From Lottia gigantea (Eukaryota): 39,237 nt of DNA. The notes under the pieces were generated by a model. That model saw only the letters and a program-made list of their open reading frames with translations, searched no databases and had not been told where the DNA came from. The DNA lies in the NCBI RefSeq assembly GCF_000327385.1, contig NW_008709540.1:1-39237 (forward strand), written 5' to 3'. The first letter of the stretch is position 1. Each line of letters begins with the position of its first letter. Both the position numbers and the translations under genes were made by a program. Of the stretch, positions 2,035-39,237 are shown one piece after another.

Positions 2035-3370
2035 TGTGATATGAATAATAGTTTGATTGGTATATATCTGTTTTCTTCTTGTGATATGAATAATAATTTT
2101 CATAGGTGTATATCTGTTTTCTTCTTGTGATATGAATAAAAGTTTTGATAGGTATGTGTCAGTTTTCTCCTTGTGATATGAATAAAAGTTTTGATAGGTA
2201 TGTGTCAGTTTTCTCCTTGTGATATGAATAAAAGTTTTGATAGGTGTATATCTGTTTTCTCCTTGTGATATGAATAAAAGTTTTGATAGGTATATATCTG
2301 TTTTCTCCTTGTGATACGAATAAAAGTTTTGATAGGTATATATCTGCTTTCTCCTTGTGATATGAATAATAGTTTTGATAGGTATATACCTGTTTTCTCC
2401 TTGTGATATTAATAAAAGTTTTGATAGGTATATATCTGTTTTCTCCTTGTGATATGAATAAAAGTTTTGATAGGTATATAACTGTTTTCTCCTTGTGATA
2501 TGAATAAAAGTTTTGATAGGTATATATCAGTTTTCTCCTTGTGATATGAATAATAGTTTTGATTGGTGTATATCTGTTTTATCCTTGTGATATGAATACT
2601 AGTTTTGATAGGTATATGTCAGTTTTCTCCTTGTGATATGAATAATAGTTTTGATAGGTATATGTCGGTTTTCTCCTTGTGATATGAATAACAGTTTTGA
2701 TAGGTATATAACTGTTTTCTCCTTGTGATATGAATAATAGTTTTGATAGGTATATGTCGGTTTTCTCCTTGTGATATGAATAATAGTTTTGATAGGTATA
2801 TGTCAGTTTTCTCCTTGTGAATATGAATAAAAGTTTTGATAGGTATATATCAGTTTTCTCCTTGTGATATGAATAATAGTTTTGATAGGTATATGTCAGT
2901 TTTCTCCTTGTGAATATGAATAAAAGTTTTGATAGGTATATAACTGTTTTCTCCTTGTGATATGAATAATAGTTTTGATAGGTATATGTCAGTTTTCTCC
3001 TTGTGAATATGAATAAAAGTTTTGATAGGTATATGTCAGTTTTCTCCTTGTGATATGAATAATAGTTTTGATAGGTATATGTCAGTTTTCTCCTTGTGAT
3101 ATGAATAACAGTTTTGATAGGTATATATCTGTTTTCTCCTTGTGATATGAATAATAATTTTGATAGGTATATAACTGTTTTCACCTTGTGATATGAATAA
3201 TAATTTTGATAGGTATATAACTGTTTTCTCCTTGTGATATGAATAATAGTTTTGATAGGTATATGTCAGTTTTCTCCTTGTGAATATGAATAAAGTTTTG
3301 ATAGTGTATATCTGTTTTCTCCTTGTGATATGAATAACAGTTTTGATAGGTATATAACTGTTTTCACCTG
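2035..3370. repeat. Minisatellite, about 59-60 bp unit x about 22 (ttgtgatatgaataatagttttgataggtatatgtcagttttctcc)
   Basis: Tandem period about 60 bp visible by eye. ORF 2579-3184(-) is a repeat artifact (protein is itself perfectly periodic). Confidence 0.9.
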
Positions 3371-3537: not shown

Positions 3538-4439
3538 ATGATGGCGATAACTTTAATAACTATATTATGTCTGATTGCCGGCACAGATGCACAAATTATG
3601 CCGGGAATGGGAATGCCCGGAATGCAAATGGGAATGCCTGGAATGCAAATGGGAATGCCCGGAATGCCGCCAAATAGAATGACTGGAATGCCCAATGGAA
3701 TGCCCAATGGAATGCCAAATGGAATGCCAAATGGAATGCCAAATGGAATGTCAAATGGAATGCCCAATGGAATGCCGAATGCAATAGAATACCGGGAATG
3801 TCAAATGGAATGCCAAATGGGATGCCAAATGGGATGCCAAATGGAATGCCAGGTATGCCAAATGGAATGCCTGGTATGCCAAATGGAATGACAGGTATGC
3901 CAAATGGAATGCCAGGTATGTCAATTGGAATGCCAGGAATGCCAAACGGAATGCCAGGTATGCCAAATGGAATGCCAGGAATGCAACTTGGTATGCAAAA
4001 TAGAATGTTCGGATCATCCGGGGGAATGCCTGGAGGAATTCCAAGATTTCCAGGTGGATTTCCCGGATTATCAGGGGGTATGCCAGGATTATCAGGGGGT
4101 ATGCCAGGATTATCAGGGGGTATGCCTTTTGGATTTCCTGGATTGAGGAGTGGAATTCCCGGTGGTTTCCCCGGAATGAACATGATAAATAACCCTATGT
4201 TACAGGCCAGATTACAATTGATGAATAATGGTCAACCAAATCAGCAGTCATCCTCTGATAATGCCAACAATAGCGGGTCTTCAAACAATGATTCCAATAA
4301 TAGGAACGCTAATATCAATCCGTTTGCTAACATTGGTATGAGTATGTTCAACAGGCAATCTCCTTTCGCTATGCTGGGAGGAAGATCGCCATTTGGAGGA
4401 TCACCATTTGGAGGACGATTCCCATTCACAATGGGCTAA
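3538..4439 (+). CDS. Secreted Met/Pro/Gly-rich low-complexity repeat protein (signal peptide [19 protein letters not shown]; MPGM/MPNG repeats; non-repetitive N/S/Q-rich C-terminal tail); reading frame interrupted near 3781-3797
   Basis: ORF 3538-3891 starts with a hydrophobic signal peptide followed by MPGM/MPNGM repeats. The same repeats continue in ORF 3798-4439 in another frame, which ends in a 90-aa non-repetitive tail. The aberrant 16-17 nt segment gcaatagaataccggg at about 3781-3797 breaks the repeat and the frame. It is a paralog of the 16637 gene by signal peptide and composition. Confidence 0.6.
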
Positions 4440-6539
4440 ATCAAACACATCCACCAACTAGACAGAAACCTGGGTCCTTTGTTCCTTTTTTACGAAATTT
4501 AACTCACAATGATTGTACTGTTTCGATCATCTGATTTGATTGTGGAATAAGTTCATTTAATCAGCTTAATCTTAAATCTGGAATTCATATAATGTTATTT
4601 TTGTGACAACTGTCCCTAAATATATATAATAGAAGGACTTTTAAATGGACTTTTACTTTTTTCGGAATAATCTCAGAAATATGTTATGCAAACTTTAGAC
4701 TTTTGTTACTATCAAATTATACACTTCATGTTCGTGTAGGAAAAAATTTGTTGTATTTTAAACACGGTTTAATGTAATATGTAAATTATTGATTAAAATG
4801 TGTTCTATCATATGGTTTGTTTTATATATTTAGTAGGGATTTCTGAAAAGTGCTTAGCTTAAGTGAGATATCTCAATGGAATTGAAACAAACTTGTGCCG
4901 CCAACAAGTTCAATCATTTAATCAATCATATATACAGGGTTCAATTTAAGCGGTATCGCAGTGCAGTTTGCGAGTCAAAATGACCCATTTTCCGATACCC
5001 CTATGATTAGCCAAAAGTAAAATTCCTCACAACAATCTGTCAATCAGACATCGAAGATGTGAATTACCACTGGGAAATTGTTCAAACCTGAAAGGTGATT
5101 ATGTAGAGATATAAATTATAACTATCGACTATCGGTACGGGTCATTTATTGTTGACCATTAATTTCAAAGTAACTATTGGTTCTAGAAAACTTTATTTAG
5201 CTGCCTGAAATACAACATAACGCAACCGTCACCAACGACGAAATAGTAAGGGGCGCCCAATTGTCAGCAAAACTCCGCAATTGGCACAGCAGCGCCCTCT
5301 CTTATTTCGATTTTAGATATTTAAAATGTTATAAAAACAGTGTTGAATCATATTTTTCTTTCCCGTCATTAAAGGTGAACATTTCGCAGTTGTGATAACA
5401 TCCATTTTTCATTCCTGTACTTTTATTCTTGAAAATTGTATTGGCGGTCTGTATTTAACTAAATACCGTATTTGGGAACTACATTTTGTAAGTTATGATT
5501 TTGTTTTTGTTGTAGTATATCCAGGAATATTAACAGCCTTGTTATTATTACCAATGTGAATGCCATTGTAAACTTGCACATTTTGAATTTCGTTTCTAGA
5601 AGGTTACCAGAAGCTGTATGTTAGAAAGTCGTAGATTTTCGTCATTTTAATATTCACATCCGATAAATTTAGAGAAATCTTCAGAATTTGATTACAACAG
5701 AACATCTATGGCCAAAGCTTGAAGCTGTCTGTGTGAATAATGATTTTGATTTTGGTACGCTGTGCAGCAGAAATTTTGAATTTTGAAGAAGCATTTCTAA
5801 AGGTAAAGTAAAAGTTTGGCCAACATCTTGATACAGAATGATGAAGTTGAAAGTATTGAAATCGATGACGACCCTGAACACACAGACATGCCAACTAGTA
5901 ACCAGGAATCTCTTCGACAGCTGAACGCACCTTTTCTGTCCTGAAACGAGTCAAATGTCGAATACTTCCTATTGGCTAGATTTTTATTGCGTTTATGGAG
6001 ATGTTTTGTCGCTTGTCTAAGGTCATTCTCGATTCCTTGTCGATCTCAATGGCGAATACTGGCGAGAATGGCACCAACCGTACGATATCTGACGCTCGCT
6101 TCACGCTTATACCAGAGCTATGTGGCTCTGGCTTATACCACGCCTGGGGAATGGCGACCTTAACACGCTCTTAGCTAATTTTTAAGGTCGCATAACGAAG
6201 TCAGAACTGTCAAAAACACAGAATTCAGCGATATTCCGGTTCTATGTTCTTATTAAGAATTAATTTATCTTCGTTACAATAAAAGTATAAGTTAGAAGTT
6301 GTTTTTCGAGTTTTGCATTATTGACAACATGTGTTTAAATGTTTTATTAACACCGCACTGTACAAAACAATTTCTGATCCTCCAGCCAATTTGGAGCCAC
6401 CACGCCACTGGTGGGCTTTGAGGTGTCATGGGTTCGACATCAGGACAGAAAACATGCATGTAATCAAACAGAGAGGTCTCTAATATACATTGGACTACAT
6501 TACTGTAGAATTTGTTTGTGGTCTGAGTCTATATTCAAC

Positions 6540-7060
6540 GAATCAACAGATACTGGAAAGTGAAAGTAGATTTCTAAGAAAAGATGTAAGTTATATTTTT
6601 AACTGTCACTGTACAAGGAGAAAAGGAAACGTTGAAATAGAATAAGCTGCTGCTATCACCGAAGATATATATTCGGATTCTGCGAGGTTAAAATATAGGA
6701 CAACCTAAAGACTGGTTAATCTAGGTGTAAGATATGAATAGACTGCAATCAAAGTGTAGAGATATTATTCAGTGAATGAGGAAGTAAAGCTGTAATATAT
6801 TTCTTGGTCGAACTACAATTAGGATACTAAGACATTCTGTGTTAAATTAATATTATAGACTATATTATAGTGACTAATTTATTACTAGTGAATTAAACTA
6901 ACTATAGCGACAAAAAAAAATAGAAACAGAAAGTAAAAGTAGGATTCTAAGACGTCATACTTGATAATTAAGTCAACTTAAGGTTTTAAAGATTAAAATG
7001 AAACTAGGATTTTAATACATCGAGTGACGAAACTGAAAGTAGACTTGAGTTTGACCAAAA
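6540..7060 (+). promoter_or_regulatory. Cluster of GAAAGTGAAAGT-type (ISRE/IRF-E-like) motif repeats upstream of the TRIM-like pseudogene
   Basis: ggaaagtgaaagtagatttctaag (about 6553), gaaacagaaagtaaaagtaggattctaagac (about 6921), gaaactaggatttt / gaaactgaaagtagacttgag (about 7001-7052). A related gaaactgaaagtag lies upstream of the intact minus-strand copy (about 12462-12485, reverse complement). Confidence 0.4.
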
Positions 7061-7112
7061 TTAACCTGCTTGGTGTGATAAAGACTATTCCTGATTTTAA
7101 ACTAAAATTATC

Positions 7113-8750
7113 ATGGAAAAACTAGATAAAACATGTAGTATTTGTTTACATGATCGTAAACAACCTAAAATATTGACATGTTTACATGTTTATTGTTGTC
7201 AATGTTTACTTGATTACGTCAACAAATCTCTCAAAGACGGACAATTTCCGTGTCCTCTATCTCGTGAACAAATTCAACTTCCTTCTGGTGGAGTCAGGAA
7301 TTTCAGGATTTTCCTGAAGGTGATGGAAGTGATGACGAAATAGATACAGAAACTGATGACGTGTCAAATATGAATGACGTAGCATCTCCAGCAGCAGAAT
7401 TAGGTCTCTGTGGCGTATGTGAAAGTCAAACTAGTGTAAAATATCGATGTAAAGATTGTAAACAGAGTATTTGTGAGAACTGTAAGATAGGTCATCGCAA
7501 AATTCCTGTCACTAAAAATCACGTGATTATTGATTTTGTTGATGGAATTGAAGAAGAAATTTGGGAACCCAGTAACCATGGCAACCAGAGTCCTGTAGAC
7601 CCGTGTCCTGTACATACATATAAAAACTGATTGAAATTTATTGTGTGGAATGTAAAACCTGTGTTTGTTTACAATGTTATGTTGATGAGAGTAATAGAGG
7701 TGTTCACAATGGACACCGGATATTGAATTTAGACAATAAAGATACCCAAACCAAGTTACGAGATAATTTAAAATGTTTAAATACTAATTTACAGGCTCAG
7801 ATCGACCGTTTACAGACATTTTCAGATCACCTGACATCTAAACTAAACCGAGTGAGATTGATATTTGTAGTGAGGAAGCGTGTAACAAGGTGGATCAACA
7901 AGTCCAGCTCATTTCTAAATTGGTCCAATCTCGAGCTGAACAAATTAAAACTCAAATCAACAATACTCGACACGAGGAAAGAAACAAGTTGGAAATTTTG
8001 AGAAAAGAAATGGAAATATCCATCACTGAACTAAAATCAGCCATTAAAGATTCTCTGATTACCCTAGAAGGAGAGTCGGTTGTTAAAATTGTAGAAAGAA
8101 ATGAGAGAAATAGAAATGATGAAATGAAAGTTAAACAGAAAGATTTGGTCGTTCCTGATTTACAATTTCCGAGTTTTCTTATTGGAAGTGACGTCAGAGA
8201 TGAGGTCGGGAGATTGGTTGGCGAATGCAAAAATTTCAAACAACCAAATTTTACACTGGAATATAACATAAATACAATTTCTTGTAGCTTTGTAAAAAGG
8301 TATTTTAATTTTGGTGAATTTAAATGGTATGTGAAGGTACGCTGTAATAATGATGTTGAAACTCTGGTGTGGTGTCTATCTTTGTTTATCTGAGACAAGT
8401 GTCAATGAGACAAGAGACAATGAGACAATGAGACAAGCGACAATGAGACAAGCGACAATGAGACAAGCGACAATGAGACAAGTGTCAATGAGACAAGAGA
8501 CAATGAGACAAGCGACAATGAGACAAGAGACAAGAAGAAAGTAAAAGTTATATCTGGTTTTACTATTCTAAATAAAGTCGCAGGAGAATCTCGATCTCGA
8601 CTTCCATCCTCTGATGAGTTTGAAGCAGGTGGTCCTGGGTATGGCTATAACAATTTTATTAATCTCAAAGAATTAAAAAATCCCGAAAATGGTTTTGTGG
8701 ACAAAGATGGTCATTTTTCTATCAGAATTTTAATACAACAACCCTAAGGA
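7113..8750 (+). pseudogene. Pseudogene copy of the RING/B-box/coiled-coil/MATH (TRIM37-like) gene: at least 4 frameshifts, RING Cys to Ser (PLSRE vs PLCRV), minisatellite inserted in the MATH region
   Basis: ORF fragments 7113-7343, 7361-7630, 7645-8001 and 7890-8393, plus a MATH tail through 8750 (…GYGYNNFINLKELKNPENGFVDKDGHFSIRILIQQP*). They align collinearly with the 509-aa intact ORF at 10826-12355(-) but in shifting frames. The upstream 30 bp (tattcctgattttaaactaaaatt) is also shared. Confidence 0.8.
8391..8540. repeat. 15-bp minisatellite (caatgagacaagcga) x about 10 inserted within the pseudogene MATH-domain region
   Basis: Direct reading of tandem gacaatgagacaagc units. The intact paralog has unique coding sequence (ADCKDDGRLSMYMFLIKSKTEKEM) at this position. 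Confidence 0.85.
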
Positions 8751-9745: not shown

Positions 9746-10430
9746 ATAATGAGCCAAATTTTAATCCAGCAACTGATTGTCATTGAACTTAACACTTTAT
9801 ATCTTCAGTTTCCCTAATCTTGTCCTAGGTTTAATCTAGGGTGGCGTCGAGAAGATATCTGCTTATTTTCAAATATGTTATGTGTCTGTGATGTAGGTCT
9901 CAAATGCTGGCAAAATCGACTAGACGTTGGGAAAAACTGTAGGCCGTTTACTAGATGTTAGAGCTCATTTTCAGTTGTGCATAGTAGGCCTACTCAATGT
10001 ATAATTCCCCTGCAATTCAACAAAAAAGTAACATGACGTCACTTCCAGGTCATTTTTACGATTGAATAGCAGTTCTTATATGACGTCATGACTACCTAAA
10101 TATGTTTAGTACGTCAAGGAAGTGACACGGTACGTATTTTTTAACAATTACTGGCTAAATCGACGTTCAATTTTAATTCTGAAGGACTTATTTTGAGCTC
10201 CGTCAACAAGAGAATATTAAAACGACTTTATCCTTTTCATACTTGATAAAGACAAGAGTATTATTTCTGAAACGTCGTAACGTAATTATTTCACTGAAGT
10301 TATCCAGAATATATATCTATTATATATAAAATAATATTACAAAATGATATGAAATACAATTTTTATTCTATATAATGATCGAACAAATTAAACAATATAA
10401 ACATACGGTAGGGTCATTGGGATATAAATG

Positions 10431-10810
10431 AGGTGGAGAGGAGAGAGGGTTGAGAGGAGAGAGTGAGGGTGGAGAGGAGAAGGAAAGAAACAAGAGGAAG
10501 TGAGGGGGAGGGGAGATAAGAAGAGGGATAGGAACAATGAAGGGGGGAGAGGAGAGAGAGGGGCGTGAAAGGGGGGGAGGGGAAGTGGAAGGAGAGGAAG
10601 AAGGGGAAGGGGGGGGAGAGGAAGAGGGGGAAGGAGAAGAGGGGAAGGGAAAGGAGAGGAAGAAGGGGGGGGGGAGAAGAGAGAGAAAAGGAAGAGAGGG
10701 TGGGGAGAAGGGGTGTAGGAGAAAGAGAAAGGGGGGAAGGAGATGGGAGAAGGGTAGAAGAGAGATTGGTGAAGAAAGATAAGAGAGAGGAAAAAGGGGG
10801 GCAGGGTGGG
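10431..10810. repeat. About 380-bp polypurine (GA/GGA) tract, polypyrimidine on the minus strand; abuts the stop codon of the intact TRIM-like gene
   Basis: Almost pure G/A composition (ggagaggagag…gggggagaggaagagggggaagg…). Overlapping ORFs 10368-10866(-) and 10537-10843(+) are composition artifacts. Confidence 0.9.
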
Positions 10811-10825
10811 TCACTCAGGCTTCCC

Positions 10826-12355
10826 TTACACTTGTTGAATTGATAGTCTAATAGAAAAATTCCCATCTTTGTCTACGAATCCATCGTCAGGATTTTTCAA
10901 TTCTTTGATATTAATTAAGTTGCTACGGCCGCATCCATGACCTTTTCTGGTGGAAAATTCTTCAGTATTAAAGTTTTTTGAACGAGATTTACTTTCGACT
11001 TTATTGAGAATTGTAAAACTGTATTTAATTTTTACTTTCATCTCTTTTTCTGTCTTCGATTTGATCAAAAACATATACATACTAAGACGGCCATCATCTT
11101 TACAGTCTGCAGACAAACACCAAACCAAATCCACAAAATCAAACAATTCAATTTTACTATCTAAAGATCCTCGGGAAATAGTTTTTGTATTAAATTTTAG
11201 TGTAAAGTTTTGTAGTTTTAAATTTTTACATTCGCCAACCAATCTCCCGACCTCATCTCTGACGTCACTTCCAGGAAGAAAACTCGGAAATTGTAAATCA
11301 GGAACGACCAAATCTTTCTGTTTAACTTTCATTTCATCATTTCTATTTCTCTCATTTCTTTCTACAATTTTAACAACCGACTCTCCTTCTAGGGTAATCA
11401 GAGAATCTTTAATGGCTGATTTTAGTTCAGTGATGGACATTTCCATTTCTTTTCTCAAAATTTCCAACTTGTTTCTTTCCTCGTGTCGAGTATTGTTGAT
11501 TTGAGTTTTAATTTGTTCAGCTCGAGATTGGACCAATTTAGAAATGAGCTGGACTTGTTGATCCACCTTGTTACACGCCTCCTCACTACAAATATCAATC
11601 TCACTCAGTTTAGATGTCAGGTGATCTGAAAATTTCTGTAAACGGTCGATCTGAGCCTGTAAATTAGTATTTAAACATTTTAAATTTTCTCGTAACTTGG
11701 TTTGGGTATCTTTATTGTCTAAATTCAATATCCGGTGTCCATTGTGAACACCTCTATTACTCTCATCAACATAACATTGTAAACAAACACAGGTTTTACA
11801 TCCCACACAATAAATTTCAATCAGTTTAGATGTATGTACAGGACACGGGTCTACAGGACTCTGGTTACCATGGTTACTGTGTTCCGATATTTCTTCTTCT
11901 TCAATTCCATCAACAAAATCAATGATCACGTGATTTTTAGTGACAGGAATTTTGCTGTGAATTTTTTTACACGAGTCACAAATATTCTGTTTACAATCTT
12001 TACATCGATAATTTACACTAGTTTGACTTTCACACACGTCACAGAGACCTAATTCTGCTGCTGGAGATGCTACGTCATTCATATTTGATAGGTCATCAGT
12101 TTCTGTAATAGCGTCCACTACGTCATCAACCCCACTGACGTCATCACCTTCAGATAAATTCTTAAATTCCTCGACTCCACCTGAAGGAAGTTGAATTTGT
12201 ACACGACATAAAGGACACGGAAATTGTCCGTCTTTGAGAGATTTGTTGACGTAATCAAGTAAACATTGACAACAATAAACATGTAAACATGTCAATATTT
12301 TAGGTTGTTTACGATCATGTAAACAAATACTACACGTTTTATCTAGTTTTTCCAT
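10826..12355 (-). CDS. Intronless E3 ubiquitin ligase-like protein: RING (C3HC4) - B-box1 - B-box2 - coiled coil - MATH/TRAF domain (TRIM37-like / TRAF-like), 509 aa
   Basis: Uninterrupted 509-aa ORF. RING: CSICLHDRKQPKILTCLHVYCCQCLLDYVNKSLKDGQFPCPLC. B-box-like: CDVCESQTSVNYRCKDCKQNICDSCKKIH and CPVHTSKLIEIYCVGCKTCVCLQCYVDESNRGVHNGH. Heptad-rich middle region. C-terminal MATH-like region (…SIRLSIQQV). Start ATG in aaaattgccATGG context. Confidence 0.85.
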   Translation of the reverse strand: MEKLDKTCSICLHDRKQPKILTCLHVYCCQCLLDYVNKSLKDGQFPCPLCRVQIQLPSGGVEEFKNLSEGDDVSGVDDVVDAITETDDLSNMNDVASPAAELGLCDVCESQTSVNYRCKDCKQNICDSCKKIHSKIPVTKNHVIIDFVDGIEEEEISEHSNHGNQSPVDPCPVHTSKLIEIYCVGCKTCVCLQCYVDESNRGVHNGHRILNLDNKDTQTKLRENLKCLNTNLQAQIDRLQKFSDHLTSKLSEIDICSEEACNKVDQQVQLISKLVQSRAEQIKTQINNTRHEERNKLEILRKEMEMSITELKSAIKDSLITLEGESVVKIVERNERNRNDEMKVKQKDLVVPDLQFPSFLPGSDVRDEVGRLVGECKNLKLQNFTLKFNTKTISRGSLDSKIELFDFVDLVWCLSADCKDDGRLSMYMFLIKSKTEKEMKVKIKYSFTILNKVESKSRSKNFNTEEFSTRKGHGCGRSNLINIKELKNPDDGFVDKDGNFSIRLSIQQV

Positions 12356-14614
12356 GGCAATTTTAGTTTAAAATCAGGAATATTTAGTCTTTTTCACACT
12401 TAGAAGTATCTTAGTTGTGTACAGGTTAATTTTTCTCCAATTTCAACTTCTATAATCCTATTACTACTTTCAGTTTCTCTTTTATCCATGTGTTTATAAT
12501 GGGGAATAACTCTATTTATCATCCTAATAGTTTTCAGACCACAAATTAAGAGTACATTAAATTCACAATAAAATGAAGTTTTTCGTCCTATTTTCTGCAC
12601 CCTTTGGGCTAATGAAAACGGATACCTCCATACAGTGGGCAGTGAGGGTAATCTTGCTAGGACAGTGACATTATCGAGGGATCTAGTCGCTTTTTCTCAG
12701 TCCCTCTGACCTGCATCACTGACAAGGAGGAAATAGGGTAGAAAATTAGGAAGGTATATCTTGACCTATGTCGGGATTGAACTACTAAATTCACCATATA
12801 GGCCAACTAGCCCTATACTGTCCGCTTACTACACTTTACCTCCCATACGCCTACTTCGGTCATATGATATTAGTTCTATTTTGATAGAACGCATGTCCAA
12901 ACCTAGATTATTTTTCAATCCGAAATGTCGTCTGCTTGTGAGACAGTCAAATAGAGCTGTGGAATTTAATCTGTGAAATAAATTTTGACTTGGCCTGATT
13001 TTGATGAGGGTAATTTAGATATATACCAGTAAAATATACAAGTTCTTGTCGTTTCTTATAGGTAAAGAATTTAGAATTTTACTCGGTTGAAATGCAAAGT
13101 GAATGTGAAATCGTTTAGGATATTTCCAAATCATGAATCCATTATTTGTTATGTTATGAAATTGAAATATATCCCGTTACTCTGAGTTTAATATTAAATA
13201 TAAAGTTAAATAATGAACAATATAAAAAGTTAAGGTTAAGTAATTGATAAAAATTAAATATTAATTGAAGTAATAAATAGAACAATAGAGATGAATTCAA
13301 TATAAAACACATAACAATATGGTTAAATAAATAAAGATACAAAAAAGGTTAAATAAAAAATAATTCAAACCTCTGCAGAGGTGTAATTCTATTTTTTCGT
13401 ATTCTCTTCCATATTATCAACAAAAAAAAACTCCCCTGTCTTCTTCTACAGAAATTCTGAAATTCACAATAGAACTTCCACTGAAATTGTATAGCAACAA
13501 CTTTGCTCTAGGGTATATTATTGGAATTAGTGACGCCTTGGCATCCCTCCCCGTTTCTCTATTAGGGCATATAGACTTTAAAAAAAACATTTCTGACGAC
13601 CCCCGTCCCACTCAAAAAAAAAACCATTCCGACACACACTGAAATTCACAACTCTTTACCCATCCTTGCTTCTGTATTAGGGCATCATTTTTTTTGCCCC
13701 CACCCCAATCCCTTTGATTACTAGTATGTTCGATGGCTCATGCCTCACGCCATTTTATGAGATAGTCGAGGAAAACAGGTGTTTATCTAAGAACGTATTC
13801 AGATGTATTTTTCTTTCTTCTAAAATATTTCATGCTCTTAACCTCTTTTTTCTAAATCGTCCAAAGAATTTCAATCTTTGACGTTGTGCCTCCAAAATTG
13901 ACACACAAATTATAAAAAGAGTAAAAAAAGATATCGAAGAAAATCGACTTCCTGGTGAATTGTGTAATGTTGAATAATTTTGATATTGATTAAAATAAAA
14001 CCAATTAGCTGATTAGACTAAGATAATTAATTTAAATCTTTAAACCCATACACTTTCTGTAATTACCAATCAGACCATCTAGATATTCCGAAACACTCTG
14101 CTTTCAACTAAAAACACATTAAATACCGTTTAACTTGAAAAACACTGTGTTGGTGGTTTCTGTTATAGAACGACTGTTAATTCGTCAGTGGTTCATTTTT
14201 ACAATTTTCAATAAGTTTATATAAGAACCTCTTCTTCTTCCTCTTCCCTTTCTTCTTCTTCTACCATTTATTTCACGCATTAAATGCAAAAAGTTTGTGG
14301 TTTTTGCAATGTAACTGTTTGAAACATGAAATTAATTTGGCATAGTTCGAAGTAAGGTTGTTATATATGTATGAATAGATGAAATCGAGAAATTCTCGGC
14401 AAATTTTCTACTCCAGATTAAGATTTAGATATTAATCTCATTCAACGTTATGCAGTGTACAATGATAGCAATTTCGCAAGAAAATGGCGAGTATCTTTTA
14501 TGTTCACGGGAAGCATGTGGTATTTTGCTTTCGTATCCGAATATCTAGATGTCGAGACATGCATCAACGACAGAGGAAACCCGAAACTACTATTCCATGA
14601 GGAACTCCTGGTGT

Positions 14615-15042: not shown

Positions 15043-15645
15043 ATTTTAACAGTGGTATTTCTATATTGCTCTGCTATTGATGTATTGTGCACTATTTTAA
15101 CAGTGGTATTTCTATATCGCTATACAATTAATGTATTGAGCACTATTTTAACAGTGGTATTTCTATATTGCTCTGCAATTGATGTATTGTGCACTATTTT
15201 AACAGTAATATTTCTATATCACTCTACAATTGATGTATTGAGCACTATTTTAACAGTGGTATTTCTTTATGACTCTACAATTGATGTATTGAGAACTATT
15301 TTAACAGTGGTATTTCTATATTGCTTTACAATTGATGTATTGAGCACTATTTTAACAGTGGTCTTTCTATATTGCTCTACAATTGATGTATTGAGCACTA
15401 TTTTAACAGTGGTATTTCTTTATGACTCTACAATTGATGTATTGAGAACTATTTTAACAGTGGTATTTCTATATTGCTTTACAATTGATGTATTGAGCAC
15501 TATTTTAACAGTGGTCTTTCTATATTGCTCTACAATTGATGTATTGAGCACTATTTTAACAGTGGTATTTCTATATCACTCTACAATTGATGTATTGAGC
15601 ACTATTTTAACAGTTAAAATATTGTATTTTCGTATTATATATATA
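15043..15645. repeat. Minisatellite, 60-bp unit x 10 (ttttaacagtggtatttctatattgctctacaattgatgtattgagcactat)
   Basis: Exact 60-bp period (unit starts 15043, 15103, …). ORF 15052-15732 is periodic and artifactual. Confidence 0.9.
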
Positions 15646-16636: not shown

Positions 16637-17302
16637 ATGTTGTCATTTGTTGCTCAAATCGTATGCCTTCTCGTCGGTTCCATGACCGTCCACGCCCAGT
16701 TTATGGGCATGGGCGGAATGGGCATGGGAGGCATGGGAATGGGAGGCATGGGAATGGGCGGCATGGGAATGCCAGGAATGGGTATGGGCGGTATGGGAAT
16801 GCCAGGAATGGGCATGGGCATGGACATGGACTTTGGAAATGACTTTGGAATGATGAACCCATTTGGTGGAATGGGTGGATTTGGTGGAATGGGTGGATTT
16901 GGTGGAATGAGCGGATTTGGTGGAATGGGCGGATTTGGCGGCATGGGAGGATTTGGCGGCATGGGAGGATTTGGCGGCATGGGAGGATTTGGCGGTATGG
17001 GAGGATTTGGCGGTATGGGTGGCATGGGCGGTATGGGCGGCATGGGCGGTTTTGGAGGCATGGGTGGCATGGGAATGGGTGGTATGCAAGGACTCCCTGG
17101 ATTTGGAATGGGTGCTGCTGGAATCGGAATGCCTTCTATGCCAGGGATGCCACCTATGCCAGGAATGTCAGCTATGTCAGGGATGTCAGCTATGCCAGGA
17201 ATGTCAGCTATGCCAGGGATGTCAGCTATGCCAGGAATGCCATCTATGCCAGGGATGTCAGCTATGCAAGGAATGATGGGAAATAGTGCTCCAGCAGTGT
17301 AA
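16637..17302 (+). CDS. Secreted Met/Gly-rich low-complexity repeat protein, 221 aa (signal peptide MLSFVAQIVCLLVGSMTVHAQ; GMGGMGM, GFGGMGG and MPGMSAM repeat blocks)
   Basis: Complete ORF with a hydrophobic signal peptide and a single frame through three distinct repeat types. TATA box upstream; AATAAA at 17357-17362, 55 nt after the stop. Paralogous to the 3538 gene ([14 protein letters not shown] vs VHAQFMGMGGMGM). Antisense ORFs 16643-17089 and 16654-17070 are artifacts. Confidence 0.75.
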   Translation: MLSFVAQIVCLLVGSMTVHAQFMGMGGMGMGGMGMGGMGMGGMGMPGMGMGGMGMPGMGMGMDMDFGNDFGMMNPFGGMGGFGGMGGFGGMSGFGGMGGFGGMGGFGGMGGFGGMGGFGGMGGFGGMGGMGGMGGMGGFGGMGGMGMGGMQGLPGFGMGAAGIGMPSMPGMPPMPGMSAMSGMSAMPGMSAMPGMSAMPGMPSMPGMSAMQGMMGNSAPAV

Positions 17303-17929: not shown

Positions 17930-18755
17930 TAGTGATAGCTTCACTAGACAGGGTTACATGAGCACGTTTAGTAGCTTCTCTAGACAAGGTTATATGGGCA
18001 CGTATAGTAGCTTCACTAGAGAAGGTTACATGAGCACGTTTAGTAGCTTCACTAGACAAGGTTACATGAGCATGTTTAGTAGCTTCACTAGACAAGGTTA
18101 CATGAGCATGTTTAGTAGCTTCACTAGACAAGGTTACATGAGCATGTTTAGTAGCTTCACTAGACATGGTTACATGAGCATGTTTAGTAGCTTCACTAGA
18201 CAAGGTTACATGAGCACGTATAGTAGCTTCACTAGACAGGGTTACATGAGCATGTTTAGTAGCTTCACTAGACAAGGTTACATGAGCATGTTTAGTAGCT
18301 TCACTAGACAAGGTTACATGAGCATGTTTAGTAGCTTCACTAGACAAGGTTACATTGAGCATGTTTAGTAGCTTCACTAGACAGGGTTACATGAGCATGT
18401 TTAGTAGCTTCACTAGACAAGGTTACATGAGCATGTTTAGTAGCTTCACTAGACAAGGTTACATGAGCATGTATAGTAGCTTCACTAGACAAGGTTACAT
18501 GAGCATGTTTAGTAGCTTCACTAGACAAGGTTACATGAGCATGTTTAGTAGCTTCACTAGACAGGGTTACATGAGCATGTTTAATAGCTTCACTATACAA
18601 GGTTACATGAGCATGTTTAGTAGCTTCACTAGACAAGGTTATATGAGCATGTTTAGTAGCTTCACTAGACAGGGTTACATGAGCATGTTTAGTAGCTTCT
18701 CTTGACAAGGTTACATGAGCATGTTTAGTAGCTTCACTAGAATCTCACGTGAAAA
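17930..18755. repeat. 36-bp minisatellite x about 23 (ttcactagacaaggttacatgagcatgtttagtagc)
   Basis: Exact 36-bp period. All six frames are open, so ORFs 17721-18368(+), 18355-18705(+), 17892-18377(-) and 18340-18708(-) are not evidence of coding. There is a 1-bp indel at about 18350. Confidence 0.85.
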
Positions 18756-29387: not shown

Positions 29388-30404
29388 TCAAGGATGAAAT
29401 AAATCCCTGATCATATCAACTCGTCCATCCGACTCGATATAACCACGTCGTAGATTTCTCTCCGTATAGCGAGTCGGAGATCTGTAGCGTACACGCCGTG
29501 GACTCGGAGCTAGTCGTGTTGTTCGGACATAGTTGGCATACATCCGAGGTGGTTGTGGCGTTAGAGGTACTTCTTCTACGACTAATGGCGACGGACTCCG
29601 ACGTACCACAACGCGTTCTCTGATCGGAGCAAGTGGTAAAGGCGGAGACGGACTTAGTCGCATCACTGGAGAGGAACTACGGTACACTCGATGATAATTG
29701 GACGCTCTAGACAAATTGACAGATCCAAAAGTTTCACTGAGTCCAGTCAGGGGACGAGGAAATCCAATACCCCGACGCACTGGCATGGGCAGATGATGAA
29801 AACGCGGTCGGATTACTGGAGGTAATTGTTCTACGGACACACCGTTACGAATGATCGGCGTTGCGTACAGATGATAACGTCCATCATTGACAACGATTTT
29901 CACATCCGTCCTTGGATACACACCGTACGTTTCACGCAACTCTGACCGTAGATTAACTGGTAGCGTGTCAAACTGCCCGATGTATTCGTTCGTTGGAATG
30001 AAATCCCCGTAGACCAGTGTTCCGTCAATGGTATACGACCCGCCTTGGAGCACAGCTGGAGAGCTTTCAATCCGTACTTGGCTGGCCGCAGCAATCGGAG
30101 GCAGGACTGGCATGGATTTATAGGGTGGAGGATATTTTCCGACCATCGAGTGATAAACGTTTGGTGCGTACGGTGGTGGGTTATAGTGTCCTATAACAGG
30201 CTGACTGTCAAAACCTACAGCATCTGCTACTGGGGTGGAGTAGTAGTCTCCGAACGGTAACATACCCTCATGGTGGTAGGTCATCTGGGAGGCAGTGACG
30301 GGATCTAAGGGTGTTACATACGATGCAGCCCCACCCACGCCTTCCCCATAATGCTGTTGATAAACCGGTTGAAGTTCAGGCGGGAGGAGAGAATTGTAGG
30401 CCAT
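29388..30404 (-). CDS. Single-exon ORF, 338 aa, Pro/Tyr/Arg-rich protein with two PPPY (WW-binding type) motifs; function unknown
   Basis: Long ORF in a locally GC-rich (about 50%) island within 65% AT surroundings. Start in aaaATGG context. Non-repetitive sequence. No recognisable domain. Confidence 0.5.
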   Translation of the reverse strand: MAYNSLLPPELQPVYQQHYGEGVGGAASYVTPLDPVTASQMTYHHEGMLPFGDYYSTPVADAVGFDSQPVIGHYNPPPYAPNVYHSMVGKYPPPYKSMPVLPPIAAASQVRIESSPAVLQGGSYTIDGTLVYGDFIPTNEYIGQFDTLPVNLRSELRETYGVYPRTDVKIVVNDGRYHLYATPIIRNGVSVEQLPPVIRPRFHHLPMPVRRGIGFPRPLTGLSETFGSVNLSRASNYHRVYRSSSPVMRLSPSPPLPLAPIRERVVVRRSPSPLVVEEVPLTPQPPRMYANYVRTTRLAPSPRRVRYRSPTRYTERNLRRGYIESDGRVDMIRDLFHP

Positions 30405-36200: not shown

Positions 36201-39200
36201 ACTAGCTGGAAGAAAAGATCTTCATACACCTAAGTGCTTATCCTTGTAGAATATAGTTGTATTTGTTTCTTTCCAAGTTTTTGTAATATTCTATGTAATG
36301 GTTCTTTCTTTCTTTGAACCCTTGAGCACTCTCAATCGTGCAGCTGTAAATGGGTTTGTATCATCAAGGGAAGATCAGTGGCAAGAGGTTTGGTCGTGGA
36401 CGAACATCTGGTAGAAAATATCCTTGCCAATTAATAAGTGACACATAATGCTTATTGCCATAAAAGTAAGTAAATAAATATAAACTGTGCTAACCTGTTT
36501 ATTTGTGTCATTATATCTTCAGTTTCATTTCTCAAACTATCTTCCTCTTCTTGTCGTTTTTGTAAAAATGCATTCATTTCAGCTAGAACTAAAGCTTTAG
36601 TTTTTACCTGTAAATACGAACAAAAAAAAAAACTTAATACATTTACAAAACAGGCTTATCACATTGAATGTCATTTTTCTTATCTTCCCCTCAACTGAAG
36701 GTTGATTTTATTCCAATTTGAATTAGAAATTTGAAAACAGTGAGATAACAGTGTGGTATTGAGGAGGAAAAAGAAGGATTTATTGATCCTGTATTGAATA
36801 CAGTGTATTTATAATTTCAACATAGTAGGATAAATAATGACATTGGGATCATGTTTTTCCACCAAGAACTGCCAAAATCCAACAACATCATAAACAAATT
36901 TCAAGATTAATTGTAGGGTAAGTGTTAAAAAGATTTGATACTCACCAGTTGTTCACTCTCTATTTTTTCCCGTCGATAATGACAAAGACGTTCCCAGATC
37001 TGGACTTCCAAGTTCTCTGGCATGTTAGATTGTCTGTCCAGTTCCTCTATAGCTTGTTCCATGGCTATTTTACTCTGAGCATTTTGACGTGCTGTAGATG
37101 GTCGTTCAGCGAATGGATTGGGAGCTGACGGATCTAAAACTGGTGTATCTGCTCCTTTAAACTTCTGACCTCTATAATATTTAAATTGACACAATTGTAT
37201 TTATACTCTCACATCAAATAGTCTCACATATTGTTGTTTTGAAGAGGAAGGGGGGTGGGGGAGTGGTTTAAATTCATCAAATAGTCTCACATATTGTTGA
37301 TGCTGTTAGACAAAGTTTTGAGAGGGTGGGGGGGTGGGGGGGAGGGAGGAGGGGGGAGTGGTTTAAATTCAATTGTTTTCAGACTCCCACATGAAATATG
37401 GGAACAAATTTGTTTTGCCCCTGTTAGTCAGTTTAATAAAGAAAGAGTTGTTTTGTTGAAGTAAAAGAACTATGTGATTGTATAATAGAAATTGGCAAGT
37501 TAAATCATCATGATTCATGTTAATGAAAGAATTATATAAATTCAACCTCCAGTTGTCTTGAATAAAGAGTTAACCTACCTAGGCCTCTTTTTAAATAATT
37601 TAAATAAAGTATCAGCCATTACAGCAGAAACATCGTTAAATTCTCTTCGGAAAGTTTTATCCATTAATTTATCTTCCGCCAACAATCGATCATAATCGTC
37701 GCGGAATTTCTCCAGGTTTTTCTTCGACTCATTCACAGCTTCTGTAGTCAATTGCTAAAATGGTTCCATTTTCAAATTTCAATAAAAAATCTAGTAATGG
37801 TTTTTTACTAATTTATCATTTCATCGAAACAACCTTACAGAAGATGGTTGGTTGGTAAATGACATCTGCTTCCTGTTAACACATGGCTGATATCACAGAC
37901 TACCCCCTCATAAGACAATAACGCCCTCTTCCCTACTCATTCTTAGCATTATTGACCAGGGGAAACCATACTTGAATATCCATACTTTCTCAAATATTTA
38001 TTTCATTTCTCCAAATACACTCTTCTTAAACTTTTGCCTCAAACTGGAACCTTAGCATCTAAAACTGTAGCTTACCTTCAAAACTCTCTTGTGTTCTAAT
38101 TTAGCATTTAGTTCATGTTCTTGTATTTCTAATTCCTCTTCTAATAATAAATTATACCTCAACCTGTTGATCTTTAGATCTTCCTATAATTAATATAAAA
38201 CATTCCCTTAACCCTTTTCACAGAGAAACACAGAGTCCTTGATTCAACAAATTTAAACAAAGATAAAACCAGATTTTAAAATATACGACAATTTGTTCAT
38301 TATGATTGAAATTGTTTTCAAATATTGATTAAACACCAACAAAAACTGAGTCTTTGATAAGTATTAATTAAAACTAATAAAGTTATTGTCTATTTCATGC
38401 ATTTCCAATGTAGTATTTAAAAAAGGTTTTGAGGTTTTGAGACAAAAATTCTTAGACCATTCTTCTTCAACCATGACAAATGATTCTCTATAAAAAATAA
38501 TAAAGATTTCACTAGACTTAAAATCAACAATACTGATTATAATTTCTGTATATACCTGATATAAAACCATCATAACTTTCACTTTCTTCATAAACAATTG
38601 ATTTAAAACTTCATCAAAACCAGTCATATTATCAGCTATCACCTGTTCTAATTTACGTAACTCTGTTTCTAATTGCTGAAAAATAAGATTTTACCAGTCG
38701 ATTAAAACATAAATATAAAAAGCAAAAATTGTCTAAAATATTGCTTTCTCAGTTAGAGCCCCTAGAAAAATGGTTTGTACCCCCATTTGATTTTCAAAAA
38801 TATAAAATGTGTTTTTTACTTGTTTTTGCACAGAAATACAGGTCAAAATGCACCAAGTGTATTCTATCATTAAAAAATTTTCTTTCGGGACACTAATCTT
38901 AATATTTTTTTTTATCTCAACCTTGACAATATTGTATCTCAATTAAAACAGTATGCTCCTGACCCTGTCATTGCAGTTTGGGTCTCTGTTTATTGTCTGG
39001 ATGGTAACAGAAGACAACTGTAGAAAAATGAAATAAAACCTAACACCTGTCTTTAAATCAGAGAGTTTAGATTCCTACCTTTCTGTATTTTTCTCTTTCT
39101 TCCTTCAAATCCTGAACTTTCTTTTCATATTCTTTAGCTGATTTCACCTCCTCTTCTGTCCATTCTTCAGACTCTTTCGTTGTCATAAATAATGGTTTAG

Positions 39201-39237
39201 GGACATCCTGTAAAATATATATATATAAATTGAATAA
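33247..39237 (-). CDS. 3' portion (at least 11 coding exons, gene continues beyond window end) of a coiled-coil cilia/flagella-type protein gene (CFAP/CCDC-like; exact family uncertain)
   Basis: Exons on the minus strand, all with canonical AG/GT and mutually consistent phases: 39079-39207 (DVPKPLFMTTKESEEWTEEEVKSAKEYEKKVQDLKEEREKYRK); 38556-38675 (QLETELRKLEQVIADNMTGFDEVLNQLFMKKVKVMMVLYQ); 38076-38183 (EDLKINRLRYNLLLEEELEIQEHELNAKLEHKRVLK); 37579-37754 (QLTTEAVNESKKNLEKFRDDYDRLLAEDKLMDKTFRREFNDVSAVMADTLFKLFKKRP); 36946-37171 (RGQKFKGADTPVLDPSAPNPFAERPSTARQNAQSKIAMEQAIEELDRQSNMPENLEVQIWERLCHYRREKIESEQL); 36495-36607 (VKTKALVLAEMNAFLQKRQEEEDSLRNETEDIMTQIN); 35963-36122 (RLREDRQRFTINLEVQLLLKQGQVEVDAGRFVHDFKPSALLHRSVVEDLNKTIK); 35426-35499 (QYGEKKIASMMDSKDFRKGIIQLE); 34958-35048 (WEHKRMLMEMDDLQNKMKDIQFMKVTREIQA); 34395-34475 (YLSEKDYVSKKTQDILILEQTLQLLKK); 33872-34025 (THEKNVSEKRKILKDLNKTIRTKESSNQDLDSQLTEINVSVNERKHIDDVN); 33247-33416 (AERRLDTGAEKRYKEIVQRRKLVDLAKAQAQEVAVLRAEVERLRMRTFPALVQVEH*). 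Introns uniformly about 320-480 bp. Confidence 0.65.
35100..35215. mobile_element. MITE family 1 fragment inside an intron of the coiled-coil gene
   Basis: gcagcgatttgattggattgtacactagaaaatacagccaagcagtctgtaaacaataagcc matches the family-1 core. Confidence 0.5.
36186..36430 (+). mobile_element. Two partial SINE-like fragments inside an intron of the coiled-coil gene
   Basis: 36190-36240 (tttggccaaggactagctggaagaaaagatc) matches the 21667-21715 tail. 36330-36430 (cagctgtaaatgggtttgtatcatcaagggaagatcagtggcaagagg…ctggtagaaaata) matches the 17660-17770 core. Confidence 0.5.
37200..37375. repeat. Tandemly duplicated about 75-85 bp unit containing G-rich GGGGGGTGGGGG blocks (intronic)
   Basis: catcaaatagtctcacatattgttg…gggggtggggg…agtggtttaaattc occurs twice (about 37200-37285 and about 37270-37375). 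Related G-blocks at 1005-1090 and 32385-32480. Confidence 0.7.

What the first reader, a model, noticed from the sequence alone, without database searches (positions are those of the whole stretch)
6540..7060. Repeated GAAAGTGAAAGT (ISRE / IRF-binding-like) modules upstream of the TRIM-like gene copies
Within 550 bp upstream of the pseudogene ATG there are at least three copies of a roughly 25-30 bp module: GAAA(c/g)(a/t)GAAAGT(a/g)AAAGTAG(g/a)(a/t)TTCTAAGA. The core GAAAGTGAAAGT is the classical IRF/ISRE half-site arrangement (GAAAnnGAAA). A related GAAACTGAAAGTAG sits upstream of the intact copy (about 12462-12485 on the minus strand). TRIM genes are classic interferon/IRF targets in vertebrates, and IRF homologues exist in many invertebrates. 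This could therefore be a conserved immune-response enhancer array, or just a local minisatellite.
Basis: partly seen in the sequence, partly recalled or inferred. Interest (0 to 1): 0.55.

Follow-up and report, generated by a model that had tools for sequence, protein, structure and literature searches.

The report
IRF-site-like promoter module, locally duplicated
A roughly 30-base sequence whose core matches the binding site of interferon-regulatory-factor proteins really does recur upstream of two limpet (Lottia gigantea) TRIM-MATH genes, but the copies arose by local duplication of promoter pieces, mostly in front of the dead gene copy, so this is a plausible untested immune switch and not a demonstrated conserved enhancer array.

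Summary
GAAANNGAAAGT occurs 5 times in 39 kb against 0.18 expected. Four of the hits lie in sense orientation upstream of two convergent RING/B-box/coiled-coil/MATH genes of Lottia gigantea: pseudogene copy A (ATG 7113) and intact copy B (LOTGIDRAFT_164160, ATG 12355, minus strand).

The copies share about 24-33 nt, including a non-IRF tail (TAGGATTCTAAGA), so they are related by descent and are not independent sites. Only the proximal module (A 7029-7042, B 12477-12464) is common to both genes. The additional full copies (6556, 6923) and two half copies (6811, 6994) lie only upstream of the pseudogene, in what look like degenerate duplicated promoter units. It is not a regular minisatellite, and no other copy exists in the window.

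The core satisfies the strict IRF-E consensus GAAASYGAAASY in three of the four copies, but never the ISGF3-type GAAANNGAAACT. Lottia has IRF genes, and oyster and shrimp IRFs drive mammalian ISRE reporters. Six Patella relatives (27-36% protein identity) have no such motif within 1 kb upstream.

Best reading: a promoter-proximal IRF-type site multiplied by promoter duplication. Its function is untested (about 0.4). Interest is modest.

The parts
6556..6579 (+). Module M1 (GAAAGTGAAAGTAGATTTCTAAGA). It is a perfect strict IRF-E 12-mer. Its tail forms TTCTAAGAA, a GAS-like palindrome. GTAAGT follows at 6586-6591.
6811..6833 (+). Half module (AACTACAATTAGGATACTAAGAC). It keeps the 3' tail and has lost the GAAA core.
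   Evidence: p about 0.006 against M2
6923..6953 (+). Module M2 (GAAACAGAAAGTAAAAGTAGGATTCTAAGAC), the longest copy, with three GAAA-type hexamers. It has one mismatch to the strict IRF-E consensus. An A9 run lies just upstream.
6994..7017 (+). Half module (TAAAATGAAACTAGGATTTTAATA). It has one AANNGAAA half-site plus the tail.
7029..7046 (+). Module M3 (GAAACTGAAAGTAGACTT), the proximal module of copy A, at -84 from the ATG. The first 14 nt are identical to copy B.
12451..12477 (-). Module of copy B (GAAACTGAAAGTAGTAATAGGATTATA), at -122 from the ATG. It is a strict IRF-E match and the best match to M2 (27 of 33 positions).
12493..12498 (-). TATAAA, starting 21 nt upstream of the copy B module. 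It would place a transcription start inside or just after the module (inference).
6500..6526 (+). Block upstream of M1 that matches copy B's upstream region (12560-12534), including the shared 12-mer TTTGTGGTCTGA. It suggests that copy B's promoter continues at M1 in copy A.
   Evidence: p about 0.003
12534..12560 (-). Counterpart in copy B of the 6500-6526 block. It is followed by a weak half module at 12533-12512 (AAACTATTAGGATGATAAATAG).
7057..7109 (+). Proximal promoter or 5'UTR blocks identical in A and B: AAAATTAACCTG (7057-7068) and TATTCCTGATTTTAAACTAAAATT (7086-7109).
7113..8741 (+). Copy A, a TRIM-MATH pseudogene. It has three frame changes and a 15-bp repeat expansion at 8409-8533. 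Its first ORF equals LOTGIDRAFT_123530 (76 aa).
10826..12355 (-). Copy B, an intact intronless ORF of 509 aa with RING, B-box, coiled-coil and MATH domains. It equals LOTGIDRAFT_164160 / XP_009058917.1.

Best explanation
The repeated unit is a bipartite module of about 30-33 nt: two or three GAAA(G/C)(T/A) hexamers followed by TAGGATTCTAAGA. It belongs to the proximal promoter of a Lottia gigantea-specific pair of TRIM-MATH genes.

Shown: the module is real and non-random. One copy is shared by both genes at -84 and -122 from the ATG. The extra copies upstream of copy A are paralogues of it, produced by local duplication or insertion of degenerate promoter units.

Inferred: the shared proximal module is a docking site for an IRF-family factor of the IRF1/2 type (an IRF-E, not an ISGF3-type ISRE). 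It lies close to the transcription start; in copy B a TATAAA box sits 21 nt upstream. This would make the intact gene inducible by nucleic-acid or pathogen signalling through the mollusc RLR/STING-TBK1-IRF axis. The upstream copies in front of the pseudogene are by-products of promoter duplication and not a selected enhancer array, although they would add IRF sites if they are still bound.
For: - Motif statistics.
- Strict IRF-E consensus GAAASYGAAASY: 4 hits against 0.12 expected, 3 of them upstream of the two genes and all in sense orientation.
- Copies related by descent over 24-33 nt, including the non-IRF tail.
- A/B homology (93% in the gene body) runs upstream to the module, 14 of 14 positions identical, while the intervening 70-108 nt has three indels and about 81% identity.
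- Copy B's upstream block 12560-12534 matches copy A's 6500-6526, next to M1. This implies that about 470 bp in copy A is inserted or duplicated promoter material.
- Every full copy keeps two adjacent GAAA hexamers, although different hexamers have decayed in M1 than in M2, M3 and B.
- Tandem duplication of a promoter unit of about 350-370 bp is seen directly in a Patella vulgata relative.
- IRF DNA contacts with GAAA / AANNGAAA and the AAGTGA hexamer repeats are established, and the contact residues are preserved in invertebrates (PMC7819612).
- Oyster IRF2/IRF8 and shrimp IRF activate mammalian ISRE reporters, and the ISRE of shrimp Vago4 sits in the 5'UTR (PMC5557890, PMC4602278).
- Lottia has IRFs with both the DNA-binding and IRF-association domains (PMC3308963).
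Against: - There are no binding, expression or transcription-start data.
- The array sits in front of a pseudogene; the intact gene has a single full module.
- The A/B conservation is compatible with neutrality after a recent duplication.
- The 3' tail is kept at least as well as the GAAA core: six copies of the tail against four of the core. Conservation is therefore not specific to the IRF-like part.
- No NF-kB-like site accompanies the module.
- Six Patella vulgata and P. caerulea relatives have no GAAANNGAAA within 1 kb upstream, and only 3 background-level hits in 30 kb upstream.
Confidence: 0.42

Rival explanations
1. Neutral promoter debris. The module is simply the best-preserved piece of locally duplicated, decaying promoter or 5'UTR sequence upstream of a dying gene copy. 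Its resemblance to an IRF site is a coincidence in A-rich DNA (41% A), and nothing binds it specifically.
For: - The copies share a non-IRF tail, and the half copies keep only that tail.
- The array is confined to the pseudogene.
- A/B identity of the 14-mer is expected about 36% of the time at 93% identity.
- The motif is absent upstream of 6 Patella relatives.
- The A-rich local composition raises the frequency of GAAA strings.
Against: - Even with local dinucleotide shuffles, the strict 12-mer is expected 0.004-0.009 times per 573 bp. An arbitrary duplicated 30-mer would contain GAAANNGAAA with a probability below about 1%.
- All four full copies retain a canonical pair of adjacent half-sites despite different decay.
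- The position next to a TATAAA box in the intact gene suits a proximal element.
Confidence: 0.33
2. The module is functional but read by another factor or used for another purpose. One option is a PRDM1/Blimp-1-type repressor site, since the PRDI-BF1 consensus overlaps IRF-E. Another is a transcription-start or 5'UTR element, with M1 acting as a short alternative first exon because GTAAGT follows it at 6586-6591.
For: - M1 (AAGTGAAAGTA) matches the Blimp-1 consensus (A/C)AG(T/C)GAAAG(T/C)(G/T), recalled from my own knowledge, at all but the last position.
- TATA-like strings lie 19-26 nt upstream of each full module, and in copy B this is a canonical TATAAA. That would put the transcription start within the module.
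- A GTAAGT donor-like hexamer lies 7 nt after M1.
Against: - The copy B and M3 cores (AACTGAAAGTA) have two mismatches to the Blimp-1 consensus.
- There is no convincing splice acceptor between M1 and the ATG of copy A.
- GTAAGT occurs at chance frequency in the window, 23 observed against 22 expected.
- Similarity among the units does not extend significantly into the TATA-like flanks.
Confidence: 0.13
3. The module is part of a dispersed transposable element (SINE, MITE or LINE tail) of the Lottia genome, or M1 and M2 are a target-site duplication flanking a retro-insertion at 6580-6922 that ends in A9.
For: - An A9 run (6912-6920) lies immediately before M2, and M1 and M2 flank about 343 bp as direct repeats.
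- tRNA-B-box-like strings lie upstream of both copies, at about 6430 and about 12780.
Against: - There is no further copy of the module or of 6580-6922 anywhere else in the 39 kb window or in 69 kb of Patella DNA.
- Direct repeats of 24-35 nt in more than two copies are atypical for a target-site duplication.
- No transposable-element ORFs are nearby, and there are no Rfam or tRNA hits.
Confidence: 0.1

Closest known systems
IRF-E / PRDI-type IRF-binding element (tandem GAAA hexamers, e.g. (AAGTGA)n and GAAASYGAAASY; vertebrate IRF1/IRF2 sites)
   Same: M1, M3 and the copy B module match the strict 12-mer consensus exactly. The half-site spacing, the GAAAGT hexamers and the promoter-proximal position upstream of a TRIM-type gene are all as expected for such an element.
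   Different: No binding or induction data exist. The organism has no interferon. The element is fused to a conserved non-IRF tail (TAGGATTCTAAGA), and the copies are paralogous duplicates and not independently evolved sites.
ISGF3-type ISRE (GAAANNGAAACT) of interferon-stimulated genes, including many vertebrate TRIM genes
   Same: The core is GAAANNGAAA, and the element lies within about 120 bp of the coding start of a TRIM-family gene.
   Different: The 3' half-site ends in GAAAGT, not GAAACT: the window has 0 hits for GAAANNGAAACT. ISGF3 (the STAT1/STAT2/IRF9 complex) is, to my knowledge, not described in molluscs.
Shrimp Vago4 ISRE, a native invertebrate IRF target (PMC4602278)
   Same: It is an invertebrate gene with a single ISRE-like element close to or inside the 5'UTR, proposed to be driven by an IRF.
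   Different: The shrimp element was validated by EMSA and reporter assays, whereas this one is a sequence prediction only. The target gene class is also different.
Tandemly duplicated promoter units in patellogastropod TRIM-MATH genes (Patella vulgata locus L004)
   Same: Local duplication of the proximal promoter, which in Patella includes the first codons, generates repeated upstream units.
   Different: The Patella units are 350-370 bp, 80-94% identical and contain no GAAANNGAAA. The Lottia units have decayed, so that only the module and a 12-mer remain recognisable.

Membership tests
IRF-E / ISRE cis-element | Two GAAA half-sites separated by 2 nt (GAAANNGAAA) | tested here: met
   M1, M2, M3 and the copy B module all match. 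Observed 4 in 573 bp against 0.12 expected from local shuffles.
IRF-E / ISRE cis-element | Strict IRF1/2 consensus G(A)AAA(G/C)(T/C)GAAA(G/C)(T/C) | tested here: met
   M1, M3 and the copy B module match exactly; M2 has one mismatch. The consensus itself is quoted from memory (Tanaka et al. 1993, not readable here). The AANNGAAA and AAGTGA basis is given in PMC7819612.
IRF-E / ISRE cis-element | ISGF3-type ISRE, GAAANNGAAACT | tested here: not met
   0 hits in the window.
IRF-E / ISRE cis-element | Location in a promoter or enhancer near the transcription start | tested here: inconclusive
   The modules lie -84 (copy A) and -122 (copy B) from the ATG, and copy B has TATAAA 21 nt upstream. The transcription start is unknown, and a 5'UTR intron cannot be excluded.
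IRF-E / ISRE cis-element | Bound by an IRF protein and confers virus- or poly(I:C)-inducible transcription | not testable with these tools
   Support is indirect only. Lottia has IRFs (PMC3308963), and oyster and shrimp IRFs activate mammalian ISRE reporters (PMC5557890, PMC4602278).
IRF-E / ISRE cis-element | Conservation upstream of orthologues or paralogues beyond neutral expectation | tested here: not met
   The A/B sharing is compatible with 93% neutral identity. Of 6 Patella relatives, none has the core within 1 kb upstream. No closer relatives exist in the databases.
Minisatellite / tandem repeat | Head-to-tail copies with a regular period | tested here: not met
   Tandem Repeats Finder reports nothing at 6540-7060 even at score 30. 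The spacings are 367/373, 65 and 100-106 nt, with unrelated sequence between copies.
Dispersed transposable-element fragment | Many copies elsewhere in the genome, with element hallmarks | tested here: inconclusive
   There is no other copy in the 39 kb window.
TRIM / RBCC E3 ligases, MATH class (TRIM37-like architecture), for the flanking genes | N-terminal RING, B-box(es), coiled coil and C-terminal MATH domain | tested here: met
   Pfam scores against curated cut-offs: zf-C3HC4 31.7 bits (21), zf-B_box 39.5 bits (24.1) in two stretches, MATH_2 40.5 bits (32). Helical-repeat hits cover residues 216-350.
GAS (STAT) element | TTCNNNGAA palindrome | tested here: inconclusive
   It is present in the M1 tail (6572) and at 6534 and 6768, but not in M2, M3 or the copy B module. 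The window total of 14 is at chance level, 15 expected.

The most novel reading that the evidence does not exclude
The module is a native molluscan IRF-response element, and promoter-unit duplication has built a working multi-site IRF array in front of a lineage-specific TRIM-MATH gene pair. That would mean the IRF-to-TRIM regulatory link seen in vertebrate interferon responses also operates in a gastropod that has no interferon, and it would give the first sequence-defined endogenous IRF target promoter in a gastropod. The conserved TAGGATTCTAAGA tail would then be a partner-factor site forming a composite element.
Probability: 0.2. Interest if true: 0.5.

Novelty: new member of a known kind. 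Interest (0 to 1): 0.3.

Why it matters
Endogenous DNA targets of mollusc IRFs are largely undefined. In the papers read here, the oyster work used human ISRE or IFN-beta reporters (PMC5557890). A defined 12-mer next to a TATA box of an intact, intronless gastropod TRIM gene is a cheap, testable candidate for EMSA or a reporter assay. It would help answer whether IRF control of TRIM-type effectors predates interferon.

As it stands, this is a motif-level prediction in a single locus. Most of the 'array' lies in front of a pseudogene, and nothing shows conservation beyond a recent duplication.

Tried and rejected
- Regular minisatellite: rejected.
- Chance occurrence: rejected on whole-window and local shuffles.
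- Fifth strict hit at 38575: it is a coding exon (KKVKV) of a cilia-gene-like ORF and unrelated.
- Known RNA or tRNA/SINE annotation: no hits.
- Transposable-element ORFs in the flanks: none found.
- NF-kB sites accompanying the module: none.
- Extended homology of TATA-like flanks among the units: not significant beyond about 35 nt.
- Alternative first exon from the GTAAGT after M1: no acceptor, and GTAAGT occurs at chance frequency.
- Finding same-species paralogues or the genome: the Lottia proteins are in the protein collection, but their gene positions are not indexed. The metagenome scan gave one irrelevant locus. Apart from the A/B pair, no Lottia protein above about 30% identity appeared among the hits whose species I looked up.
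- Distant bivalve TRIM-NHL locus (Mactra, L002): uninformative.
- Patella relatives L004-L009: no module. At least L004 shows an acceptor-like string about 65 nt upstream of its ATG, so its real promoter may lie further away. The 5 kb examined still held only background-level core hits.

Full report
**What is there**

The window is eukaryotic DNA of about 35% GC. Exact protein look-ups identify it as Lottia gigantea (owl limpet). The 76-aa first ORF of copy A (7113-7343) is LOTGIDRAFT_123530. The 509-aa ORF at 12355-10826 on the minus strand is LOTGIDRAFT_164160 / XP_009058917.1. Both lie on a 2.16-Mb scaffold.

The 509-aa protein has a RING domain, two B-box stretches, a helical middle region and a C-terminal MATH domain, all above the Pfam cut-offs. 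This is the TRIM37-like RBCC-MATH architecture.

The two copies are convergent. Copy A (plus strand, 7113 to about 8741) is 93% identical in DNA to copy B over 1.2 kb. It is broken by three frame changes and a 15-bp repeat expansion.

**The observation**

- M1: 6556-6579.
- M2: 6923-6953.
- M3: 7029-7046.
- Copy B module: 12477-12451, minus strand.

GAAANNGAAAGT occurs 5 times in the window against 0.18 expected. Four hits are these modules, all in the sense orientation of the adjacent gene. The fifth is inside a coding exon near 38.58 kb.

With shuffles of the local, A-rich 573 bp alone, the expectation is 0.009 for the 12-mer (3 observed) and 0.12 for GAAANNGAAA (4 observed). The core density is about 7 per kb upstream of copy A, against about 0.3 per kb in the rest of the window.

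The motif is therefore real and locally enriched.

**Anatomy**

The copies are not independent sites. Similarity runs over 24-33 nt and includes a tail, TAGGATTCTAAGA, that has nothing to do with IRF binding. M2 against the copy B module gives 27 of 33 matches, and M1 against M2 gives 21 of 24.

Two further half copies (6811-6833 and 6994-7017) keep the tail but not the GAAA core. A weaker half copy sits in copy B at 12533-12512.

In register, the full module is a run of hexamers: [GAAACn][GAAAGT][(G/A)AAAGT][AGGATT][CTAAGA]. M1 has a decayed first hexamer but an intact third one. M2 keeps the first and has AAAAGT as the third. M3 and the copy B module keep the first and have lost the third.

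Each full copy thus retains one canonical pair of adjacent half-sites. This hints at constraint only mildly, because the copies were recognised by that motif in the first place.

It is not a minisatellite. Tandem Repeats Finder finds no array here, and the spacings are irregular with unrelated sequence between copies. No other copy of the module or of the intervening DNA occurs in the window.

**Relation between the two promoters**

A/B homology continues upstream of the ATG in blocks:
- TATTCCTGATTTTAAACTAAAATT, 24 of 24 identical.
- AAAATTAACCTG, 12 of 12 identical.
- GAAACTGAAAGTAG, 14 of 14 identical.

These blocks are separated by three indels, with about 81% identity in between. Collinear homology stops at the 5' edge of the module.

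However, copy B's next upstream block (12560-12534, including TTTGTGGTCTGA) matches copy A at 6500-6526, just upstream of M1 (p about 0.003). The simplest reading has three parts:
- The ancestral promoter ran block, TATA, module, ATG, as in copy B.
- In copy A, about 470 bp of additional, now degenerate promoter units was inserted or duplicated between M1 and M3.
- That material carries a unit with a half module and M2, followed by a partial unit.

Tandem duplication of a promoter unit of about 350-370 bp, including the first codons, is seen directly in a Patella vulgata relative, so this mechanism operates in the family.

A target-site-duplication origin is a weaker alternative. It rests on M1 and M2 flanking 343 bp that ends in an A9 run. 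The repeats are long for a target-site duplication and number more than two.

**Does it look like an IRF site?**

Yes at the level of consensus. The strict IRF1/2 pattern GAAASYGAAASY is matched exactly by M1, M3 and the copy B module, with 4 hits in the window against 0.12 expected. The ISGF3-type GAAANNGAAACT is never matched.

IRFs read GAAA / AANNGAAA. IRF1 affinity scales with AAGTGA repeats, and the GAAA-contacting residues are preserved in invertebrate IRFs (PMC7819612). Oyster IRF2 and IRF8 and shrimp IRF activate mammalian ISRE or IFN-beta reporters, and the native ISRE of shrimp Vago4 lies in the 5'UTR (PMC5557890 and PMC4602278). Lottia gigantea has IRFs with both the DNA-binding and the IRF-association domain (PMC3308963, citing Nehyba 2009).

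In the intact copy, a canonical TATAAA (12498-12493) starts 21 nt upstream of the module. By the usual 25-30 nt rule, which is an inference, transcription would start within or just after the module.

**What argues against a conserved enhancer array**

- Only one full module serves the intact gene; the multi-copy arrangement is in front of the pseudogene.
- The A/B identity of the 14-mer is expected about 36% of the time at 93% identity, or about 5% at the 81% seen in the flanking promoter. That is weak evidence at best.
- The non-IRF tail is retained in more copies than the GAAA core.
- No NF-kB-like site is nearby. GAS-like TTCNNNGAA strings occur three times upstream of copy A but never upstream of copy B, and they are at chance frequency window-wide.
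- The closest retrievable relatives are six intronless TRIM-MATH-like genes of Patella vulgata and P. caerulea, at 27-36% protein identity. None has GAAANNGAAA within 1 kb upstream. There are only three core hits in 30 kb of upstream DNA and no strict match in 69 kb.

These Patella genes are distant paralogues. At least one seems to have a 5'UTR acceptor about 65 nt upstream of its ATG. The negative result therefore limits the claim of deep conservation and says little about function in Lottia.

Within Lottia, the pair has no other close relative. Among the hits whose species I looked up, the next Lottia protein is about 30% identical and partial. In any case, Lottia genomic DNA outside the window could not be reached.

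**Verdict**

The sequence observation is confirmed. The module is a genuine, locally duplicated piece of the proximal promoter of a Lottia-specific TRIM-MATH gene pair, and its core is an exact IRF-E-type site.

I put about 0.4 on the shared proximal module being a working IRF-family site. I put about 0.33 on neutral duplicated debris with a coincidental match. The remainder goes to another factor or a transcription-start role, or to a transposable-element fragment.

The 'conserved immune enhancer array' reading is only partly supported. This is at most a new, unvalidated member of a well-known class of cis-element. It is useful as a concrete candidate for defining native mollusc IRF targets, but it is not surprising.

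Noticed in passing
window 3538-4439 (+) and 16637-17302 (+): Two ORFs encode Gly/Met/Pro-rich low-complexity repeat proteins ([11 protein letters not shown]... and GMGGMGGFGG...), built on 9-54-bp DNA repeats. The only hit is a weak sub-threshold one to Lamprin. They may be paralogous structural or matrix-type proteins.
   Followed up: partly
window 2035-3369, 15043-15614, 17936-18741, 1-376: Large, well-preserved minisatellites: 46 bp x29, 51 bp x11, 36 bp x22, and a 15/40/55-bp array at the window start. Some carry long spurious ORFs.
   Followed up: no
window 8409-8533: A 15-bp tandem repeat (GACAATGAGACAAGC, 8.3 copies) lies inside pseudogene copy A. The corresponding part of intact copy B is shorter and did not align.
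   Followed up: partly
window about 6380-6445 (+) and about 12870-12770 (-): tRNA-B-box-like strings (GGGTTCGACATC; GTTCAATCCCG) lie in the DNA a few hundred bp upstream of both TRIM copies. They look like SINE debris. ARAGORN and Rfam find nothing.
   Followed up: partly
window 10368-10866: A GA-rich low-complexity tract (GGAGAGG / GGGGAA repeats) lies immediately downstream of the stop codon of copy B, in the spacer between the two convergent copies.
   Followed up: no
window 6534, 6572, 6768: Three GAS-like TTCNNNGAA palindromes occur within 240 bp upstream of copy A, one of them formed by the tail of module M1. There are none upstream of copy B, and the window-wide count is at chance level.
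   Followed up: partly
L004 4292-5026 (Patella vulgata OW026350.2): The proximal promoter and the first six or so codons of a TRIM-MATH relative are tandemly duplicated (unit of about 350-370 bp, 80-94% identity). An acceptor-like string, ttctctgcattacag, lies about 65 nt before each ATG.
   Followed up: partly
window 36925-39237 (-): Exons of a conserved coiled-coil gene run off the window end. Its homologues carry PF25828, and it looked cilia/flagella-protein-like to me. One exon contains the unrelated fifth GAAAGTGAAAGT hit.
   Followed up: partly
window 29388-30404 (-): An intronless ORF of 338 aa, rich in Pro, Ser and Arg, with no Pfam match.
   Followed up: no
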